32,000 nucleotides of DNA from an uncultured Erysipelotrichaceae bacterium (lineage in GTDB: Bacteria; Bacillota_I; Bacilli_A; Erysipelotrichales; Erysipelotrichaceae): the NCBI GenBank assembly GCA_964401865.1, contig CAYNZZ010000003.1, positions 1 through 32,000 of the forward strand, read 5' to 3'. Of the stretch, positions 1 through 16,758 are shown piece by piece. A program made the translations under genes and the position numbers. How positions within the stretch are numbered: the stretch's first letter is position 1; every line of letters begins with the position of its first letter. The notes under the pieces are model-generated. The model searched no databases and was not told the origin of the DNA. It saw nothing but the letters and a program-made list of their open reading frames with translations.

Positions 1-252
1 CCCTAAAGTATTAAGATAGTTACGGAGTCCTGAAGTATTGATTTAGTGATTAACAAAAAGATACACAGGCAATCTAGTCAAAAAGTTACGGAGTCCTGAA
101 GTATTGATTTAGTGATTAACTAAATCACCTTGGTTACATCCTAGAACATAGTTACGGAGTCCTGAAGTATTGATTTAGTGATTAACAAAAGATGTGCGAA
201 ATTTATACCTATTTTAGTTACGGAGTCCTGAAGTATTGATTTAGTGATTAAC
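1..252 (+). CRISPR. CRISPR array, promoter-distal (trailer) end; type II-like geometry (36-nt repeats, 30-nt spacers); continues upstream of the window
   Basis: There are four identical copies of GTTACGGAGTCCTGAAGTATTGATTTAGTGATTAAC at 19-54, 85-120, 151-186 and 217-252. Unique 30-nt spacers lie at 55-84, 121-150 and 187-216. Bases 1-18 are the 3' part of a further spacer. The strand is assigned from complementarity to the + strand tracrRNA at 1284-1317. Confidence 0.95.
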
Positions 253-337
253 TTTTTAGGAAATATTTGTGGGGCTTAATTCTGTGAATTATAGATAAAT
301 AAAAAGTATAATTCGATTGTTTTGTAAAATTTTAATA

Positions 338-1291
338 ATGAGAGCATATATTGATAACGAAAACTATATAGATATATCTATAGAGTTAAAGAAATTTAAC
401 TATATAAGAGGGTTTAATGGATCGGGTAAGACTAAATTGCTTGATTATTTTAAAAATGCCTTTGAAGCCAAAGAAAAACGATTTTTATTAGACGGCAATA
501 AAATATCAAAAGGTGATTATGATGTTTATTACGTTGGAGAACATGACGATTTAGATATTGAGAGTGTATTAGGAGCAAAGAGTTATTTAAAGCAAGATTT
601 AAAGAATTCAATTGCTTCTTTAGAAGACAGTGAAAAGGATCGAATTGAGAATTATATTAATTCATTGGTCAAACTAATTAATGATAGTATTCAAGATGTT
701 AGGATTGGCGATATATCTGTAGAAATGAATCTGAATTTAAATGATTTAATCATGAAAAACAGCATTGTTAAAAATAGTGGATACGCAGTCGATAAATTAC
801 CTAATACTATAAAAAGAACAGAATATATAAATATGATAATCAAATTAATTAAAAGATATAAAAAGCCATGTGTACTGCTTATTGATGAAGTGTTCATGAA
901 TTTATCTTTTGTTAATAGACAAAATATGATAAATAACTTATATAATGAGTTAGCTGATGAAAATGTTATTGTTATAGTAACTGGGTCTGGTAATGATATT
1001 ATGAATTTTAATTCGATTTTTGTATTTGAAAATGAAATAAAAAATTTAATCATCGATGATATGACTTTTAAAAAATTAATAGCAATTAAAGAAAAGTGTT
1101 CTATTGAGGATGTTGAAAAATATTTTTTAGATGAAGAATTAAGTGATATCAAGTTAAAAATATATAGAGAATTAAATATAATCGATAGATTTGTTAATAA
1201 AAATGGTGAATTCAATAATTTTTCTGAGTTTTATGAATATTTGATTGAAGAATATAGTATAATAAATTTGCGAAGAGATTCGCATCACTAA
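338..1291 (+). CDS. P-loop NTPase (ABC/SMC/RecF-like motif order), function unknown; located between the CRISPR array and the tracrRNA
   Basis: An uninterrupted 324-codon ORF (317-1291) in extremely AT-rich DNA, where stop codons should be frequent. Walker A is GFNGSGKT near the N-terminus. Walker B is CVLLIDE about 150 aa later, preceded by a degenerate ABC-signature-like LPNTIKR. The start is set at the first ATG (338); TAAAAT at 325-330 lies 7 nt upstream and there is no SD. TTG at 317 is the alternative start. Confidence 0.8.
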   Translation: MRAYIDNENYIDISIELKKFNYIRGFNGSGKTKLLDYFKNAFEAKEKRFLLDGNKISKGDYDVYYVGEHDDLDIESVLGAKSYLKQDLKNSIASLEDSEKDRIENYINSLVKLINDSIQDVRIGDISVEMNLNLNDLIMKNSIVKNSGYAVDKLPNTIKRTEYINMIIKLIKRYKKPCVLLIDEVFMNLSFVNRQNMINNLYNELADENVIVIVTGSGNDIMNFNSIFVFENEIKNLIIDDMTFKKLIAIKEKCSIEDVEKYFLDEELSDIKLKIYRELNIIDRFVNKNGEFNNFSEFYEYLIEEYSIINLRRDSHH

Positions 1292-1381
1292 ATCAGTACG
1301 AAATTCAGGACTTCGTATTAAGGGCCTCGAAAGAGTGACCCGTAAAAAAATAGAACAGTTATGCTGTTCTATTTTTATTTT
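1270..1381 (+). ncRNA. tracrRNA: tracrRNA (anti-repeat 1284-1317, AAGG nexus-like motif, GNRA-capped stem 1322-1341, intrinsic terminator 1349-1381)
   Basis: Hand alignment gives 30 bp of pairing. Repeat nt 3-16 pair with 1317-1304 (14 bp, one G.U). Then there is a 4-nt tracr bulge, GAAA at 1300-1303. Repeat nt 17-32 pair with 1299-1284 (16 bp, one U.G). Downstream, UUAAGGG is followed by GGGCCUC-GAAA-GAGUGACCC and then the hairpin AUAGAACAG-UUAUG-CUGUUCUAU plus UUUUUAUUUU. The 5' end is uncertain; TATAAT at 1258-1263 would place a TSS near 1270. Confidence 0.8.
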
Positions 1382-1650: not shown

Positions 1651-1679
1651 TAGACAATGATAGTTGAATTTGTTATAAT
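1651..1679 (+). promoter_or_regulatory. Sigma-A type promoter of the purine-riboswitch operon
   Basis: TAGACA (1651-1656), a 17-nt spacer and TATAAT (1674-1679), with a TGn extended -10 element (TG at 1671-1672). Confidence 0.65.
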
Positions 1680-1696
1680 TTTATCGGTTTTAAATT

Positions 1697-1767
1697 AGTC
1701 ATATATGGCGCTAATATGGTGCGTTAAGTTTCTACCCAACTGCCGTAAATTGTTGGACTATGATGAT
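1697..1767 (+). promoter_or_regulatory. Purine riboswitch aptamer, guanine/hypoxanthine class by discriminator C
   Basis: The sequence matches the conserved blocks of the B. subtilis xpt aptamer as I remember it: P1 CAUAUA...UAUGAUG, L2 AUAUGG, J2/3 AAGUUUCUACC, L3 CCGUAAAU. The P3 3' strand GUUGGA is followed by C (1758) and then UAUG. C at this position specifies guanine-type ligands; U specifies adenine. Confidence 0.85.
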
Positions 1768-1784
1768 ATTTTAGAAATGATTTT

Positions 1785-1819
1785 AGGCTTCTATATATCA
1801 TATATGGAAGCCTTTTATT
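1785..1819 (+). terminator. Riboswitch expression platform: intrinsic terminator (predicted OFF switch)
   Basis: A 13-bp hairpin, AGGCUUCUAUAUA-UCA-UAUAUGGAAGCCU (1785-1813), is followed by UUUAUU. It lies between the aptamer and the SD (GGGGGAA) / ATG 1834. Confidence 0.7.
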
Positions 1820-1833
1820 CTAAGGGGGAAAAG

Positions 1834-2667
1834 ATGAATAAAAAGATACCTTATTTGTTTTTGCTGCCAGGTATAGTGTTACTGCTTTTTTTCTTGATAG
1901 CGCCACTATTTTCTATACTATGGCCTACGCTATTTCCTGATGGGTTTTCATTAAGTGCTTATATTAGTTTCTTTACCGATGAGTATTATATCGAAATATT
2001 GGTCAGAACTATTAGAATTGCATTAATCGCTACTTTGATATGTGTTATCTTGGGTGTTCCAACTGCATATTTTATCTCGAGATGTAATGCAAAGTGGAAG
2101 GGACTTCTGATTGCGATTTCGATTTTCCCTATGCTTACAAATTCGGTAGTCAGATCTTTTGCTTGGATAAACATTTTAGGTAAAAACGGAGTAATTAATA
2201 AATTAGGAATGTCCTTAGGCTTAATTGAAGAACCCATTAGCATGTTATATACTGAGTTTTCAGTTTTGATTGGTACGATATATTTATTTTTGCCACTAAT
2301 TATCATGACATTGATTGGAGTTATGGATCAGATCGATAATGATATGATGGAAGCAGCTGAAAGTTTGGGTGCTAGTAAGCTTAAAGCTTTCTTAAAAGTT
2401 GTATTGCCACTTAGTATTCCTGGTATCTTGACTGGTGCAGTGCTTGTTTTTACTGGCGCTTTAACAGCTTATACAACTCCTCAATTATTGGGCGGCAATA
2501 AATCACTTGTATTAGCAACTTTGATCTATCAAAGAGCCGTTACACTTAATGATTGGACTGGAGCTAGTGTGATTGCCGCAGTAATGATTATTATTACTTT
2601 GGTTGTTATGAAAGTATTGAACTTTATTGCAGCTAGATTAGATAAGAGAGGTGAAATAGATGCGTAG
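1834..2667 (+). CDS. ABC transporter permease (PotB-like, binding-protein-dependent transport family)
   Basis: The protein is polytopic and has an EAA-like loop (MEAAESLGASKLKAFLKVVLP). The start is moved to ATG 1834 (MNKKIPYLF...) behind the SD AAGGGGGAA, because the ORF-track extension 1705-1833 overlaps the riboswitch. Confidence 0.9.
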   Translation: MNKKIPYLFLLPGIVLLLFFLIAPLFSILWPTLFPDGFSLSAYISFFTDEYYIEILVRTIRIALIATLICVILGVPTAYFISRCNAKWKGLLIAISIFPMLTNSVVRSFAWINILGKNGVINKLGMSLGLIEEPISMLYTEFSVLIGTIYLFLPLIIMTLIGVMDQIDNDMMEAAESLGASKLKAFLKVVLPLSIPGILTGAVLVFTGALTAYTTPQLLGGNKSLVLATLIYQRAVTLNDWTGASVIAAVMIIITLVVMKVLNFIAARLDKRGEIDA

Positions 2668-3442
2668 ATATAAAGGATTAACGATATTTGCGATATTAGT
2701 ATTCTCTTTCTTATTCATCCCTTTATTGATAATTGCTGTCACGGCATTTGGAAGTGAACCGACAATAACATTTCCGATTAATGGCTTTTCACTTGAATGG
2801 TTTGCAAAAGCCATCAACTCGGCATCTTTTAGAAAAGCATTTGCTCTTAGTATAGAAATAGCTTTCTTAGCAACTATATTGGCTTTGATAGTCGGGATAC
2901 CTGCTGCTTATGCGTTGAGCAGATATAGTGTTAAAGGAAGAAAACTTATTAAAAACTTCTTCTTATCGCCAACAATTGTTCCTGGGATTGTAGTTGGTTA
3001 TGCATTATTTAGAATTGTCGTTATTAAACTTAGGATACCCGTTTTCCAAGGCTTATTGCTAGGACATTTCTTGGTAGTATTACCATATATCATTAGAGTT
3101 GTGGGTGGCTCGCTTGAACAGTTTGATTATTCGGTTGAAGAAGTTGCTTGGAGCTTAGGCTGTGATAAATTTAGAGCATTCTTTAAGGTGGTTATACCTA
3201 ATATATCTAGTGGTATTATTTCTGCCTTCTTATTGGCGTTCATCAATTCTTTTAACAACATTCCGGTTTCAATGTTCTTAGGAGGTCCTGGTATTACTAC
3301 ATTACCGGCTTCATTAATGAGTTATGTTGAATATAATTACGATCCAACAGTATCAGCTGTATCTGTATTACTTATGTTAGCTACAATCGTAATTATGTTT
3401 ATTGTAGAGAAAACATTGGGTATTAGTGCCCTTGCGAAATAG
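2660..3442 (+). CDS. ABC transporter permease (PotC-like)
   Basis: A six-TM-like hydrophobic profile with an EAA-like loop (EEVAWSLGCDKFRAFFKVVIP). It overlaps the upstream permease by 8 nt. Confidence 0.9.
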   Translation: MRRYKGLTIFAILVFSFLFIPLLIIAVTAFGSEPTITFPINGFSLEWFAKAINSASFRKAFALSIEIAFLATILALIVGIPAAYALSRYSVKGRKLIKNFFLSPTIVPGIVVGYALFRIVVIKLRIPVFQGLLLGHFLVVLPYIIRVVGGSLEQFDYSVEEVAWSLGCDKFRAFFKVVIPNISSGIISAFLLAFINSFNNIPVSMFLGGPGITTLPASLMSYVEYNYDPTVSAVSVLLMLATIVIMFIVEKTLGISALAK

Positions 3443-3451
3443 GAGGTTAAT

Positions 3452-4483
3452 ATGGCGTTTGTTGATTTAAAAGATATATGTGTAAGTTATGATGGAAAAA
3501 AGAACATCTTGGAAGGTTTGAATCTTCAAATTAACGAAGGCGAACTAGTATCACTGCTAGGACCTTCTGGTTGTGGTAAAACAACCACATTGAGGGTTAT
3601 TGCAGGATATATTGATTCTAAGAGCGGAGAGTTTTTAGTTGATGGCGAAAACTATACTAAAGTTCCTGTTCATAAAAGAAATTTTGGAATTGTTTTCCAA
3701 AGCTATGCTTTATTTCCTCATTTGACTGTATATGAAAATGTTGCCTTTGGCTTGAAAATGCGTAAATTGGATAAAGAAACCATTGATAAAAAGGTTATGA
3801 ATATGTTAGATGTATGTGGTTTAAAAGAGTTCAAGGATCGTTTGCCAAAACAGATGTCTGGTGGTCAAAGACAGCGTGTTGCATTAGCTAGAGCCCTTGT
3901 AATCGAACCTAAACTACTATTATTAGATGAACCACTTAGTAATCTTGATGCAAAATTAAGAGTACAGATGCGTGTAGAAATCAAAAGATTACAGAAACAG
4001 TTGGGTATCACTACTATTTTTGTAACTCATGATCAAGAAGAATGTTTCTCAATTTCTGATCGTGTGGCCGTTATGAATGGCGGAGTAATCGAACAATACG
4101 ATACTCCTGAAAATATTTATGCTCGTCCAAATACTGAATTTGTTGCGAGATTTATCGGTTTTGAAAACTTTATTGAAGTTGAAAGAGAATCTAAAAATCA
4201 TTATAGTGCTCAAGGACATTTATTTAAAGTTAGTGATGATAGAGATGCGCAAAAGGCAAAAATTTCTATCAGACCTGATGATATAGAAATTGTTGAAAGT
4301 TCAAAGGGAGATAACTGTGTGTCAGGCACAATTCAAGTTAGAACTTTCTTGGGAAAGAGTTATCAATATGCTGTCAAATGTGATGTTGGAACATTGATAG
4401 TTAATGGTGGCAGTAACAGAGTGTATGAAACGGGCGATACAATTTGTATGCATCTGCCTTTTCATAAAATTGTTCTTGTTTAA
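3452..4483 (+). CDS. ABC transporter ATP-binding protein (PotA/MalK-like with C-terminal TOBE-like domain)
   Basis: Walker A GPSGCGKTT, signature MSGGQRQRVALARAL, Walker B LLLLDEP, H-loop VTHD. SD AGGAGG lies upstream. Confidence 0.95.
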   Translation: MAFVDLKDICVSYDGKKNILEGLNLQINEGELVSLLGPSGCGKTTTLRVIAGYIDSKSGEFLVDGENYTKVPVHKRNFGIVFQSYALFPHLTVYENVAFGLKMRKLDKETIDKKVMNMLDVCGLKEFKDRLPKQMSGGQRQRVALARALVIEPKLLLLDEPLSNLDAKLRVQMRVEIKRLQKQLGITTIFVTHDQEECFSISDRVAVMNGGVIEQYDTPENIYARPNTEFVARFIGFENFIEVERESKNHYSAQGHLFKVSDDRDAQKAKISIRPDDIEIVESSKGDNCVSGTIQVRTFLGKSYQYAVKCDVGTLIVNGGSNRVYETGDTICMHLPFHKIVLV

Positions 4484-16627: not shown

Positions 16628-16758
16628 AAAGTTAGACCTTTTATGCTATCATACTTTTGTTATAGTCTCCTTGGAGTCTATAACCGCTCAAAAAAGGTTA
16701 GAAATATGCGTATGCATTACCTTCATGGCGCGTCTTAAGAAGAAAAGGAGGTTTAACT
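16624..16758 (+). promoter_or_regulatory. rplU promoter plus structured 5' leader (possible ribosomal protein L21 leader)
   Basis: TTGAAA (16624-16629), a 17-nt spacer and TGcTATCAT (-10 at 16647-16652). The leader that follows is about 100 nt and contains the hairpin GUUAUAG-U-CUC[CUUG]GAG-U-CUAUAAC (16658-16683) and a second AAGGU...ACCUU stem. The family assignment is from context only. Confidence 0.45.

What the first reader, a model, noticed from the sequence alone, without database searches (positions are those of the whole stretch)
1..1381. Array -> P-loop ATPase gene -> tracrRNA on one strand: a non-canonical type II-like CRISPR module
Seen in the sequence:
- The last of four perfect repeats ends at 252.
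- An ORF for a Walker A/B ATPase starts 85 nt later on the same strand (338-1291).
- Its stop codon (1289-1291) lies inside a 34-nt anti-repeat (1284-1317), which is followed by a nexus-like AAGG, a GNRA-capped stem and a terminator.
- To the right, an unrelated riboswitch operon begins at 1651. Any cas9/cas1/cas2 must therefore lie left of the array or be absent.

Established knowledge: canonical II-A loci run cas9-cas1-cas2-csn2-leader-array, with the fourth gene upstream of the leader. II-C loci have no fourth gene.

Inference: a gene wedged at the trailer end between array and tracrRNA is one of two things. It could be a relocated, highly divergent Csn2-like protein that, unlike known Csn2, keeps catalytic ATPase motifs. 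Or it could be an undescribed accessory ATPase of a type II system.
Basis: partly seen in the sequence, partly recalled or inferred. Interest (0 to 1): 0.8.

Follow-up and report, generated by a model that had tools for sequence, protein, structure and literature searches.

The report
Type II CRISPR with displaced Csn2
This is the right-hand end of a real Cas9 (type II) CRISPR locus from a gut Erysipelotrichaceae bacterium, in which the spacer array sits between cas2 and a divergent Csn2-like gene that still has an ATP-binding site, with the tracrRNA gene right behind it: an unusual but conserved variant of a known system.

Summary
There are four perfect 36-nt repeats (19-252), a 317-aa Walker A/B ORF (338-1291), and a 34-nt anti-repeat (1284-1317) that contains the stop codon, followed by a nexus-like stem and a terminator.

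Contigs carrying the identical protein extend leftwards to WYL-cas9-cas1-cas2-leader-array. The full order is therefore cas9-cas1-cas2-leader-array-ATPase-tracrRNA. Independent Erysipelotrichaceae assemblies whose ATPase is only 23-41% identical show the same order.

The ATPase is a Csn2 homologue:
- All tested family members match long "Csn2" profiles of PADLOC.
- The best solved-structure match of a confident model is Stu0660, the long Csn2 of S. thermophilus.
- Distant members (e.g. Holdemania massiliensis, annotated "hypothetical") sit in the canonical cas2-csn2-leader-array position.

Unlike the textbook "inactivated" Csn2, this family keeps an invariant Walker A GK[ST], the Walker B Asp and an ABC-signature-like LSxSxKR. 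The catalytic Glu and the H-loop His are not conserved.

Cas9 and Cas1 score closer to II-C representatives (Nme/Geo, Pasteurella) than to Sa/St1/Listeria II-A ones.

The tracrRNA has its own -10 box inside the ORF's 3' end and starts with a small covarying hairpin.

Verdict: a real, conserved variant of type II-A. Interest is moderate.

The parts
1..18 (+). 3' part of a spacer; the window begins inside the CRISPR array
   Evidence: 18 nt precede the first repeat and have no counterpart elsewhere. Related contigs show cas2 and a 74-nt leader further left.
19..252 (+). Trailer-proximal end of the CRISPR array: four identical 36-nt repeats (19-54, 85-120, 151-186, 217-252) and three 30-nt spacers
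   Evidence: the repeat finder family D1 with period 66. Exact repeat and spacer listing. 0 matches expected by chance. The leader is on the cas2 side, and degenerate last repeats lie on the ATPase side in L012, L013 and L021.
253..337 (+). Trailer / intergenic region with no terminator, so the array and the ATPase gene can be co-transcribed. There is no Shine-Dalgarno sequence before the ATG in this genome.
   Evidence: No terminator-like site in 253-337. The same holds in L012 between cas2 and the tracrRNA terminator. Relatives have GGAGG-like SD sequences and the window does not.
338..1291 (+). csn2-like gene, 317 aa: P-loop NTPase of ABC/SMC type. Walker A at residues 25-32, Walker B D183-E184, degenerate signature motif at residues ~154-160, helical insertion at residues 83-175, C-terminal helical domain.
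   Evidence: ORF. PADLOC Csn2 PDLC01597, E = 4.3e-15. Family alignment. AF2 model pLDDT 92.4. Foldseek top hit 3zth_A Stu0660. Found next to type II components in all 13 contexts examined.
1258..1263 (+). TATAAT -10 box of the tracrRNA promoter, inside the last codons of the csn2-like ORF
   Evidence: Read from the sequence. A -10-like hexamer lies about 6 nt upstream of the 5' hairpin in about ten of the 11 other loci; L016 does not fit the spacing. No good -35 in the window. Inferred, not mapped.
1270..1283 (+). 5' hairpin of the tracrRNA, GCGAA-GAGA-TTCGC, directly abutting the anti-repeat
   Evidence: MFE folds. Every related tracrRNA has a 5-8 bp hairpin of different sequence at the same place, e.g. 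GCGTA/TACGC, ACATACC/GGTATGT, ACGGA/TCCGT, GATACCAA/TTGGTATC, ACGAAC/GTTCGT, ACAAGG/CCTTGT.
1284..1317 (+). Anti-repeat of the tracrRNA; contains the stop codon of the csn2-like ORF (1289-1291)
   Evidence: Inverted repeats I5-I14. 30-bp duplex with a 4-nt bulge, -42.5 kcal/mol. Unique in the window, 0 expected.
1318..1345 (+). tracrRNA tail: UUAAGG nexus-like element and a GGGCCUC-GAAA-GAGUGACCC stem, then GUAAAAAAA
   Evidence: Fold. UAAGG(G/C)C...GCCCGUAAG is conserved in the tracrRNAs of L011-L021.
1346..1381 (+). Intrinsic terminator: 14-bp stem, 3-nt loop, T run. Ends the tracrRNA and any read-through from the ATPase gene.
   Evidence: Terminator scan and fold.

Best explanation
Window 1-1381 is the 3' end of a complete type II CRISPR-Cas locus of an uncultured Erysipelotrichaceae bacterium. 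The order is WYL regulator gene, cas9, cas1, cas2, 74-nt leader, array, csn2-like gene, tracrRNA.

Shown:
- The array is read on the + strand from the cas2-side leader.
- The tracrRNA gene lies on the same strand. It has a -10 box in the last codons of the csn2-like ORF, a 5' hairpin, a 34-nt anti-repeat, a nexus-like stem and a terminator.
- The 317-aa protein is a divergent member of the long-Csn2 group and keeps an ABC-type nucleotide-binding site.

Inferred:
- The tracrRNA pairs with each repeat of the pre-crRNA. The duplexes are cut by RNase III and loaded into Cas9 for DNA interference, as in other type II systems.
- The Csn2-like protein works with Cas1-Cas2 and Cas9 in capturing and integrating new spacers at the leader-proximal repeat, as Csn2 does in type II-A.
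- Because Walker A, the Walker B Asp, a D-loop-like segment and a signature-like LSxSxKR are retained, nucleotide binding probably controls head-to-tail association of its ATPase heads around DNA ends. Robust hydrolysis is doubtful.
- No terminator separates array, gene and tracrRNA. The gene may therefore be expressed from read-through of the pre-crRNA transcript, and its mRNA 3' end would carry the tracrRNA sequence.
For: Locus:
- Ten contigs carry the identical protein (its index lists 37 collection blocks, 24 read). All ten share the purine-riboswitch operon on the right. The seven that extend leftwards show cas9/cas1/cas2 there, four of them back to the WYL gene and full-length cas9 (1274 aa). 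Cas2 ends 74 nt before a single collapsed repeat.
- Cas identities are confirmed by PADLOC and NCBIfam: Cas9 TIGR01865 502 bits, Cas1 227 bits, Cas2.
- An independent k127 MAG assembly (L012) resolves the whole order with 22 repeats between cas2 and the gene.
- L011, L013 and L021 show array, gene, tracrRNA. L014 and L019 show cas2, leader, repeat, gene, tracrRNA.

Orientation:
- The leader ends in ...GCTAGAG before the first repeat in L001, L012, L014 and L019.
- Degenerate last repeats lie next to the gene.
- The terminator and tail lie 3' of the anti-repeat on the + strand.

tracrRNA:
- Duplex of -42.5 kcal/mol, unique in the window.
- The same -10 / hairpin / anti-repeat / UAAGG / stem / terminator layout occurs in 11 other loci.

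Csn2 identity:
- PDLC01597, E = 4.3e-15 for the window protein. 26/27 members hit it (best 2e-24) and 24/27 hit PDLC02142 (best 1.9e-33).
- The AF2 model (pLDDT 92.4) has Stu0660 (3zth) as best PDB hit over its full length: E = 7.3e-8, about 100-fold better than the next hit, TM 0.57/0.53. E. faecalis Csn2 (3s5u) is also hit.
- A model of the Holdemania member has the short Csn2 structures 3qhq, 3s5u and 3toc on top.
- P0007, P0028 and P0031 directly abut cas2. P0031 is followed by leader and array, the canonical II-A order.

ATPase site:
- G30, K31 and D183 are invariant in 27 sequences. LSxSxKR aligns with LSGGQKR of EcfA2.
- The P-loop lies between strand 20-24 and helix 31-42 in the model.
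Against: - No Pfam or NCBIfam Csn2 model matches any of 27 family members.
- hhalign of the family against a canonical short Csn2 gives probability 0.2%.
- phmmer of sub-regions finds no Stu0660.
- PADLOC scores are moderate (54-91 bits), so this is a sister group rather than a training member of those profiles.
- TM-scores to Csn2 structures are only about 0.5. ABC NBDs, OLD and GajA follow closely, and for the Holdemania model they are on a par.
- Cas9 and Cas1 score better against II-C than II-A references.
- The window gene has no recognisable Shine-Dalgarno sequence.
- No protospacer was found, so current activity is unproven.
- Expression, RNA processing, oligomeric state, DNA binding and nucleotide binding are all untested.
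Confidence: 0.8

Rival explanations
1. The protein is an accessory ABC/SMC/OLD-like ATPase that is not a Csn2 homologue in any meaningful sense. It would have been recruited independently to a type II-C-like locus (cas9-cas1-cas2-array) and would do something other than Csn2 does, for example regulation, abortive-infection-like signalling or DNA-end processing.
For: - Only ABC, SMC, RecF and AAA models match in Pfam and NCBIfam.
- PDB profile hits are ABC-F, ECF, SMC and Rad50.
- AriA, MADS and PtuA ATPase models also match weakly.
- Cas9 and Cas1 are closest to II-C references, and the array follows cas2 as in II-C.
- There is no sequence similarity to short Csn2.
Against: - Csn2 profiles are the best PADLOC hits for all members, 7 or more orders of magnitude better than AriA or MADS for the window protein.
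- Csn2 structures are the top Foldseek hits for two independent models.
- Family members occupy the exact csn2 slot, overlapping cas2, in Holdemania and two other loci.
- No nuclease or other partner gene is conserved next to it.
Confidence: 0.12
2. The locus is decaying. The csn2-like gene was cut off from the cas operon by array growth or rearrangement and is poorly expressed or not expressed in this genome, so the arrangement has no functional meaning.
For: - No Shine-Dalgarno sequence and no clear promoter before the ATG in the window, whereas relatives have strong SD sequences.
- Related loci show decay: split cas1 and no array in L020, an IS element next to the array in L021.
- No protospacers were found.
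Against: - The ORF is intact and identical in contigs from many samples.
- cas9, cas1 and cas2 are intact in L001-L004.
- The order is kept in loci whose Cas9 proteins are only 35-50% identical and whose ATPases are 23-41% identical. That requires long-term selection.
- The repeats are perfect.
Confidence: 0.06
3. Chance neighbour or assembly artefact: an orphan array next to an unrelated ATPase, or a mis-join.
For: The window alone shows no cas genes. The Logan contigs collapse the array to one repeat.
Against: - The cas genes are found to the left in the seven of the ten contigs with the identical protein that extend leftwards.
- Megahit k127 and k141 assemblies resolve full arrays in the same place.
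- The tracrRNA matches the array repeat.
Confidence: 0.01

Closest known systems
Type II-A CRISPR-Cas with long Csn2 (S. thermophilus Stu0660-type, 'Csn2b')
   Same: - cas9, cas1, cas2 plus a fourth gene of about 300-350 aa.
- 36-nt repeats, 30-nt spacers, a leader ending in GAG, and a tracrRNA with a bulged repeat:anti-repeat duplex.
- Best solved-structure match of the protein, over full length including a C-terminal domain.
   Different: - The array lies between cas2 and the fourth gene instead of after it.
- The tracrRNA lies behind the fourth gene, with its promoter inside the ORF.
- Walker A/B are intact, whereas Csn2 is described as an inactivated P-loop ATPase (PMC10734277).
- No detectable sequence similarity to Stu0660 by phmmer.
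- Cas9 scores about 125-130 bits against St1/SaCas9 and 260-300 bits against II-C Cas9s.
Variant fourth genes of type II-A loci (Mycoplasma and Staphylococcus 'novel cas genes', Chylinski et al. 2013, PMC3737331), and the long Csn2 profiles in CRISPR-typing sets (PADLOC PDLC01597, 02142, 01379, 02136)
   Same: - A fourth gene without obvious similarity to classical Csn2, tied to particular Cas9 subclusters.
- Our family matches these long profiles at E = 1e-15 to 1e-33.
   Different: [quoted passage not shown]
- Scores here are moderate, so this is a sister lineage.
- NCBI annotates the Holdemania member as a hypothetical protein.
- I could not see which organisms the profiles were built from.
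Type II-C CRISPR-Cas (N. meningitidis, Geobacillus, Pasteurella)
   Same: - Cas9 and Cas1 are most similar to these representatives.
- The array directly follows cas2.
   Different: - II-C is defined by having only cas9, cas1 and cas2. Here a fourth, Csn2-like gene is conserved in the locus.
- There are no promoter-like -10 boxes inside the repeats (read).
ABC / SMC / Rad50-type ATPase heads, and OLD/GajA-type defence ATPases
   Same: - Walker A, Walker B, a D-loop-like DExxxxL and a signature-like LSxSxKR align with ABC NBDs.
- These are the next-best fold matches.
   Different: - No H-loop His (Ser instead), Glu instead of the Q-loop Gln, and the catalytic Glu is not conserved.
- No transmembrane, coiled-coil or Toprim partner.
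- Strict association with type II CRISPR components.

Membership tests
Type II CRISPR-Cas system | cas9 (RuvC + HNH) in the locus | tested here: met
   A 1274-aa Cas9 lies left of the array in contigs with the identical ATPase and right flank. TIGR01865 501.8 bits, HNH_4/RuvC_III. It lies outside the window.
Type II CRISPR-Cas system | cas1 and cas2 adaptation genes | tested here: met
   Cas1 TIGR03639 227 bits; Cas2 TIGR01573 76 bits.
Type II CRISPR-Cas system | CRISPR array plus a tracrRNA gene whose anti-repeat pairs with the repeat | tested here: met
   Four perfect repeats. 30-bp duplex at -42.5 kcal/mol, unique in the window. Tail and terminator present.
Type II CRISPR-Cas system | tracrRNA expression and RNase III co-processing with pre-crRNA | not testable with these tools
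   Needs RNA-seq or northern blots. The Rfam tracrRNA model does not match even at E <= 10, as expected for a family without conserved sequence.
Subtype II-A | Presence of a csn2 gene in the locus | tested here: met
   The fourth gene matches PADLOC Csn2 profiles and has the Csn2 fold as best match. Pfam and NCBIfam Csn2 models do not match.
Subtype II-A | Operon order cas9-cas1-cas2-csn2 followed by leader and array | tested here: not met
   Here and in L012, L014 and L019 the leader and array lie between cas2 and the gene. The canonical order occurs in distant relatives (L018, L020, L023).
Subtype II-A | Cas9 and Cas1 cluster with II-A representatives | tested here: inconclusive
   Only bit scores against solved structures and plasmid records were compared. 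Nme/Geo-type Cas9 score 260-300 bits against 124-129 bits for Sa/St1. Cas1 is best to Pasteurella II-C. No phylogeny with full reference sets was possible.
Subtype II-C | Only cas9, cas1 and cas2, with no fourth signature gene | tested here: not met
   A conserved fourth gene is linked in all 13 contexts examined.
Csn2 protein family | Sequence match to curated Csn2 models | tested here: inconclusive
   Met for the long PADLOC models (E = 4e-15; family best 2e-33). Not met for Pfam or NCBIfam. No overlap with the ~25 short-Csn2 models hit by Listeria and Nicoliella Csn2. hhalign against short Csn2 gives probability 0.2%.
Csn2 protein family | Csn2 fold (alpha/beta head derived from a P-loop NTPase, plus a helical insertion) | tested here: met
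   Foldseek top hit 3zth_A (E = 7.3e-8, full length, TM 0.57/0.53); 3s5u also hit. The Holdemania member has 3qhq, 3s5u and 3toc as top hits. TM-scores are modest.
Csn2 protein family | Inactivated nucleotide-binding site | tested here: not met
   GxxGxGK[ST] is intact, with G30/K31 invariant and D183 invariant. This is the main difference from described Csn2 (PMC10734277).
Csn2 protein family | Tetrameric ring that binds dsDNA ends; complex with Cas1-Cas2 and Cas9; required for spacer acquisition | not testable with these tools
   Needs biochemistry, cryo-EM and genetics.
ABC-type ATPase | Walker A, Walker B, signature LSGGQ, Q-loop Gln, H-loop His | tested here: inconclusive
   Walker A and B are met. 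The signature is degenerate (family LSxSxKR; window LPNTIKR). The Q-loop position is Glu, the H-loop is Ser, and the catalytic Glu is present in 14 of 27 members, including the window protein.

The most novel reading that the evidence does not exclude
This Erysipelotrichaceae lineage would preserve an intermediate between subtypes II-C and II-A. It would be a II-C-like core (Cas9 and Cas1 closest to Nme/Geo/Pasteurella, array directly after cas2) that captured a still nucleotide-binding ABC-type ATPase together with the tracrRNA gene beyond the array. Classical Csn2 would then be the later, inactivated and operon-integrated descendant. In this lineage Csn2 function (closing around DNA ends, hand-off to Cas1-Cas2) would be nucleotide-regulated. 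Its expression would be coupled to pre-crRNA transcription and to tracrRNA-guided processing at the last repeat.
Probability: 0.2. Interest if true: 0.7.

Novelty: new variant of a known kind. Interest (0 to 1): 0.5.

Why it matters
Csn2 is the least understood component of type II-A adaptation, and reviews describe it as an inactivated P-loop ATPase. Three points follow from this locus.

- A conserved Csn2 lineage with an intact nucleotide-binding site gives a direct handle on where Csn2 came from and on what the ATPase head once did. K31A, D183A and E184Q mutants and ATP-binding assays are simple tests.
- The gene order, together with II-C-like Cas9 and Cas1, bears on how II-A arose from II-C. 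It also shows that automatic typing can miscall such loci as II-C plus a "hypothetical protein" when it expects csn2 next to cas2 and relies on Pfam or NCBIfam models.
- For tool builders, the locus supplies a compact, well-delimited tracrRNA (about 110 nt, with a defined 5' hairpin) for a 1274-aa Cas9 clade that has no solved structure.

Tried and rejected
- The word-indexed homologue search found only the protein itself, with a single query and with the family alignment.
A 5-sequence alignment found two GTDB loci and none in JGI metagenomes. An exact repeat scan of JGI metagenomes found nothing.
- tblastn of the protein against plasmids gave no match.
- Protospacer hunt: five spacers, three from the window and two leader-proximal ones from L012, were scanned exactly against IMG/VR. 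The whole arrays of L011 and L012 were run by blastn against cultured phages. Only chance-level hits came back. No PAM and no independent check of orientation resulted.
- RNAalifold on a MAFFT alignment of 11 tracrRNAs recovered only part of one stem, because the sequence-based alignment misplaces the hairpins. The hairpin covariation is therefore reported from per-sequence folds and direct reading.
- The key classification papers (Chylinski 2014; Makarova 2015 and 2020; Lee 2012 on Stu0660) are not in the library. I could not check whether P-loop-intact Csn2 families have been described. My recollection that Chylinski 2014 defined several extra Csn2 families is unverified.
- An NJ tree of the family is star-like and does not separate the array-inserted loci from the canonical-order loci.
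- The idea that the repeats carry their own promoters, as in Neisseria II-C, was rejected. The repeat has no acceptable -10 box.
Full report
**1. Observation**

- The 36-nt repeat GTTACGGAGTCCTGAAGTATTGATTTAGTGATTAAC occurs four times without mismatch (19-54, 85-120, 151-186, 217-252) with 30-nt spacers. The window starts 18 nt inside a spacer.
- An ORF of 317 codons runs from 338 to the TAA at 1289-1291. It encodes GFNGSGKT and VLLIDE.
- The stop codon lies inside ATCACTAAATCAGTACGAAATTCAGGACTTCGTA (1284-1317). This is the only + strand match in 32 kb to the gapped reverse complement of the repeat, with none expected in shuffles.
- That segment pairs with the repeat over 30 bp with a 4-nt bulge, at -42.5 kcal/mol.
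- Downstream come UUAAGG, a GAAA-capped stem and a 14-bp terminator hairpin with a T run. The fold has z = -5.4.
- The next unit to the right is a promoter (1651-1679) and a purine riboswitch (1679-1780, 66 bits) in front of an ABC transporter operon.

**2. The rest of the locus**

The identical protein is listed in 37 blocks of the assembly collection, and ten places were returned. All ten share the riboswitch operon on the right. The seven that extend leftwards show cas genes there, and four of them (L001-L004) reach back to a WYL-domain gene. The order in those four is WYL gene, cas9 (1274 aa), cas1 (305 aa) and cas2 (110 aa). The cas identities are confirmed by PADLOC and NCBIfam.

In these k=31 assemblies the array is collapsed. 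cas2 is followed by a 74-nt leader, one repeat, and then the same 85-nt trailer and ORF as in the window. Some contigs begin inside the repeat.

The true order is therefore cas9-cas1-cas2-leader-array-ATPase-tracrRNA.

**3. The order is conserved, not an accident**

A full HMMER scan of 1.84 billion cluster representatives found only 34 relatives, about 290-330 aa long. I looked at 13 contexts.
- L012 is an uncultured Erysipelotrichaceae MAG assembled with k127. Its ATPase is 30% identical and its Cas9 50% identical. It shows WYL, cas9, cas1, cas2, a short leader, 22 repeats, the ATPase 46 nt after a degenerate last repeat, and then a tracrRNA.
- L011, L013 and L021 show array, gene, tracrRNA.
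- L014 and L019 show cas2, leader, collapsed repeat, gene, tracrRNA.
- The leader ends in GCTAGAG before the first repeat in four loci. Degenerate repeats lie on the gene side. This fixes the array polarity with the leader at cas2.
- Between the leader and the terminator behind the tracrRNA there is no convincing terminator in the window or in L012.
- Three relatives directly abut cas2 (L018, L020, L023). In L023, Holdemania massiliensis WP_303017141.1, annotated "hypothetical protein", the gene is followed by leader and array, and the tracrRNA lies upstream of cas9. That is the canonical II-A layout.
- L015, L016 and L017 are short contigs. They show the tracrRNA behind the gene but no array within the available upstream flank.

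**4. What the protein is**

Sequence evidence:
- Pfam and NCBIfam give only sub-threshold ABC, SMC, RecF and AAA matches, for the window protein and for all 27 aligned members.
- PADLOC's Csn2 model PDLC01597 matches the window protein at 4.3e-15. It matches 26 of 27 members (best 2e-24). PDLC02142 matches 24 of 27 (best 1.9e-33), often over nearly the full length. Three further Csn2 models match subsets.
- These five long models (272-338 positions) are disjoint from the roughly 25 short models hit by bona fide Listeria and Nicoliella Csn2.
- hhalign sees no similarity between the family and short Csn2. The literature likewise states that the short and the Stu0660-type Csn2 share structure but no sequence (PMC3695520).

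Structural evidence:
- An AlphaFold model built on the family alignment is confident (pLDDT 92.4, pTM 0.86).
- Its best PDB match is Stu0660 (3zth), the long Csn2, aligned over the full length. E = 7.3e-8, about 100-fold better than GajA, OLD and ABC NBDs; TM 0.57/0.53. The E. faecalis Csn2 is also in the list.
- A weaker model (pLDDT 74) of the Holdemania member has the short Csn2 structures 3qhq, 3s5u and 3toc on top, on a par with ABC NBDs.

Profile matches, fold and the canonical position of distant members together make this a divergent lineage of the long-Csn2 group.

**5. The ATPase site**

In 27 sequences G30, K31 (Walker A, GxxGxGK[ST]) and D183 (Walker B) are invariant. K81-S82 and E75 are almost invariant. 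A segment LSxSxKR, 20 residues before Walker B, aligns with the ABC signature LSGGQKR of EcfA2, and DExxxxL aligns with the D-loop.

Other catalytic positions are not kept. The residue after D183 is Glu in the window protein and in 14 of 27 members; elsewhere it is D, G, H, N or Y. The H-loop position is Ser, and the window's own signature is degenerate (LPNTIKR).

I conclude that nucleotide binding is probably retained across the family. Efficient hydrolysis is doubtful and, if present, lineage-specific. This differs from the published description of Csn2 as an inactivated P-loop ATPase (PMC10734277). I could not check whether the profile-defined long Csn2 groups share this feature, because the relevant papers are not in the library.

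**6. The tracrRNA**

Comparison of 12 loci shows a common layout:
- A -10-like hexamer (window: TATAAT at 1258-1263, inside the ORF).
- About 6 nt of spacing.
- A 5-8 bp hairpin whose sequence differs between loci while pairing is kept (window: 1270-1283, GCGAA-GAGA-TTCGC).
- The anti-repeat directly after the hairpin.
- UAAGG(G/C)C...GCCCGUAAG.
- A terminator hairpin.

One locus (L016) does not fit the hexamer spacing. The transcript is therefore predicted to start at about 1270 and end at about 1380. This is inferred, not mapped. In the window clade the promoter, and in the window itself part of the anti-repeat, overlap the 3' end of the ORF. Any read-through mRNA would thus carry the tracrRNA at its 3' end. 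Rfam's tracrRNA model does not match. That is expected, because tracrRNAs lack conserved sequence (PMC3737331).

**7. Subtype**

By gene content the locus is II-A. By similarity, Cas9 scores 260-300 bits against Nme- and Geo-type II-C Cas9 structures, compared with 124-129 bits for SaCas9 and St1Cas9. The assignment of the PDB codes to species is from my own knowledge, except St1 and BlCas9, which are labelled in the output. The Holdemania Cas9 behaves the same way. Cas1 is closest to Pasteurella II-C among plasmid records.

This fits a lineage near the II-C/II-A boundary, but bit scores are not a phylogeny. The array directly after cas2 is also the II-C position. Hence the more novel reading: a II-C-like core that acquired a still nucleotide-binding ATPase beyond the array. 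I give that reading about 20%.

**8. Mechanism proposed**

Shown: the parts list, their order and polarity, and their conservation.

Inferred from established type II biology:
- Pre-crRNA from the leader pairs with the tracrRNA, is cut by RNase III and is loaded on Cas9.
- Cas1-Cas2 integrates spacers at the leader-proximal repeat with help from Cas9 and the Csn2-like protein (PMC6620040, PMC6182153, PMC8034620).

Speculative:
- Nucleotide-dependent head engagement of the Csn2-like protein around DNA ends.
- Expression of the gene by read-through from the array.

**9. Verdict**

It is a conserved variant of a known kind rather than a new kind of system. Relatives are already recognised by CRISPR-typing Csn2 profiles, canonical-order relatives exist, and variable tracrRNA positions and variant fourth genes are documented (PMC3737331).

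The features I did not find described in the literature available to me are:
- the array between cas2 and csn2;
- the csn2-tracrRNA overlap;
- the conserved 5' hairpin of the tracrRNA;
- the intact P-loop.

I found no paper describing this order. Interest: 0.5.

Noticed in passing
L001:3775-4743; L012:407-1375; L023:2697-3710 (left of the window): A WYL-domain protein gene (322-337 aa; PADLOC WYL, E = 1e-18) sits directly upstream of cas9, with an 11-nt gap in L001. It is conserved in loci whose Cas9 proteins are only 30-50% identical, which suggests a dedicated transcriptional regulator of this type II clade.
   Followed up: partly
window 1270-1283, and the equivalent positions in L011-L023: Every tracrRNA of this clade begins with a short hairpin directly abutting the anti-repeat. 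The stems differ in sequence but keep pairing, and the loops are mostly GAGA, GAAA, GATA or GACG. Its role is unknown: 5'-end protection, processing or Cas9 contact are possibilities.
   Followed up: partly
L001:9806-9879; L012:6544-6598; L014 and L019 leaders: The short leader (about 55-75 nt between cas2 and the first repeat) ends in GCTAGAG in four divergent loci. In at least three of them (L001, L014, L019) it also carries a small hairpin just before or overlapping the motif. This may be the counterpart of the II-A leader-anchoring sequence.
   Followed up: partly
window 300-340: The csn2-like gene in this genome has no Shine-Dalgarno sequence before its ATG, whereas homologues in L011 and L013-L017 have GGAGG-like sites. 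Translation efficiency, or reliance on another initiation mode, is unclear.
   Followed up: no
window 1651-4483 and onwards: A purine riboswitch (Rfam RF00167, 66 bits, 1679-1780) with its own terminator (1785-1813) controls an ABC transporter. The transporter comprises two permeases, an ATPase and a binding protein. It is followed by two amidohydrolases, one of them of adenine-deaminase type, which suggests a purine uptake and salvage operon.
   Followed up: partly
window 16672-16745: Ribosomal protein L21 leader (RF00559, 42 bits), consistent with a Bacillota host.
   Followed up: no
L004:616-3695 versus L001-L003:2393-3695: In one sample the flank upstream of the WYL gene carries a ParB-like gene and a large serine recombinase instead of the tRNA (uracil-5) methyltransferase gene. 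A mobile element therefore borders the CRISPR locus in some strains.
   Followed up: no
L020:3989-5234; L021:60-1174: Two related loci show signs of decay. In L020 cas1 is split into 160-aa and 109-aa ORFs and no array is found. In L021 an IS element (rve transposase) lies directly upstream of the array.
   Followed up: no
L023:9001-9957 (Holdemania massiliensis WP_303017141.1): The fourth gene of a canonical-order type II-A locus in a cultured species is annotated only as 'hypothetical protein'. NCBIfam and Pfam Csn2 models miss this whole family, so such loci may be typed as II-C.
   Followed up: partly
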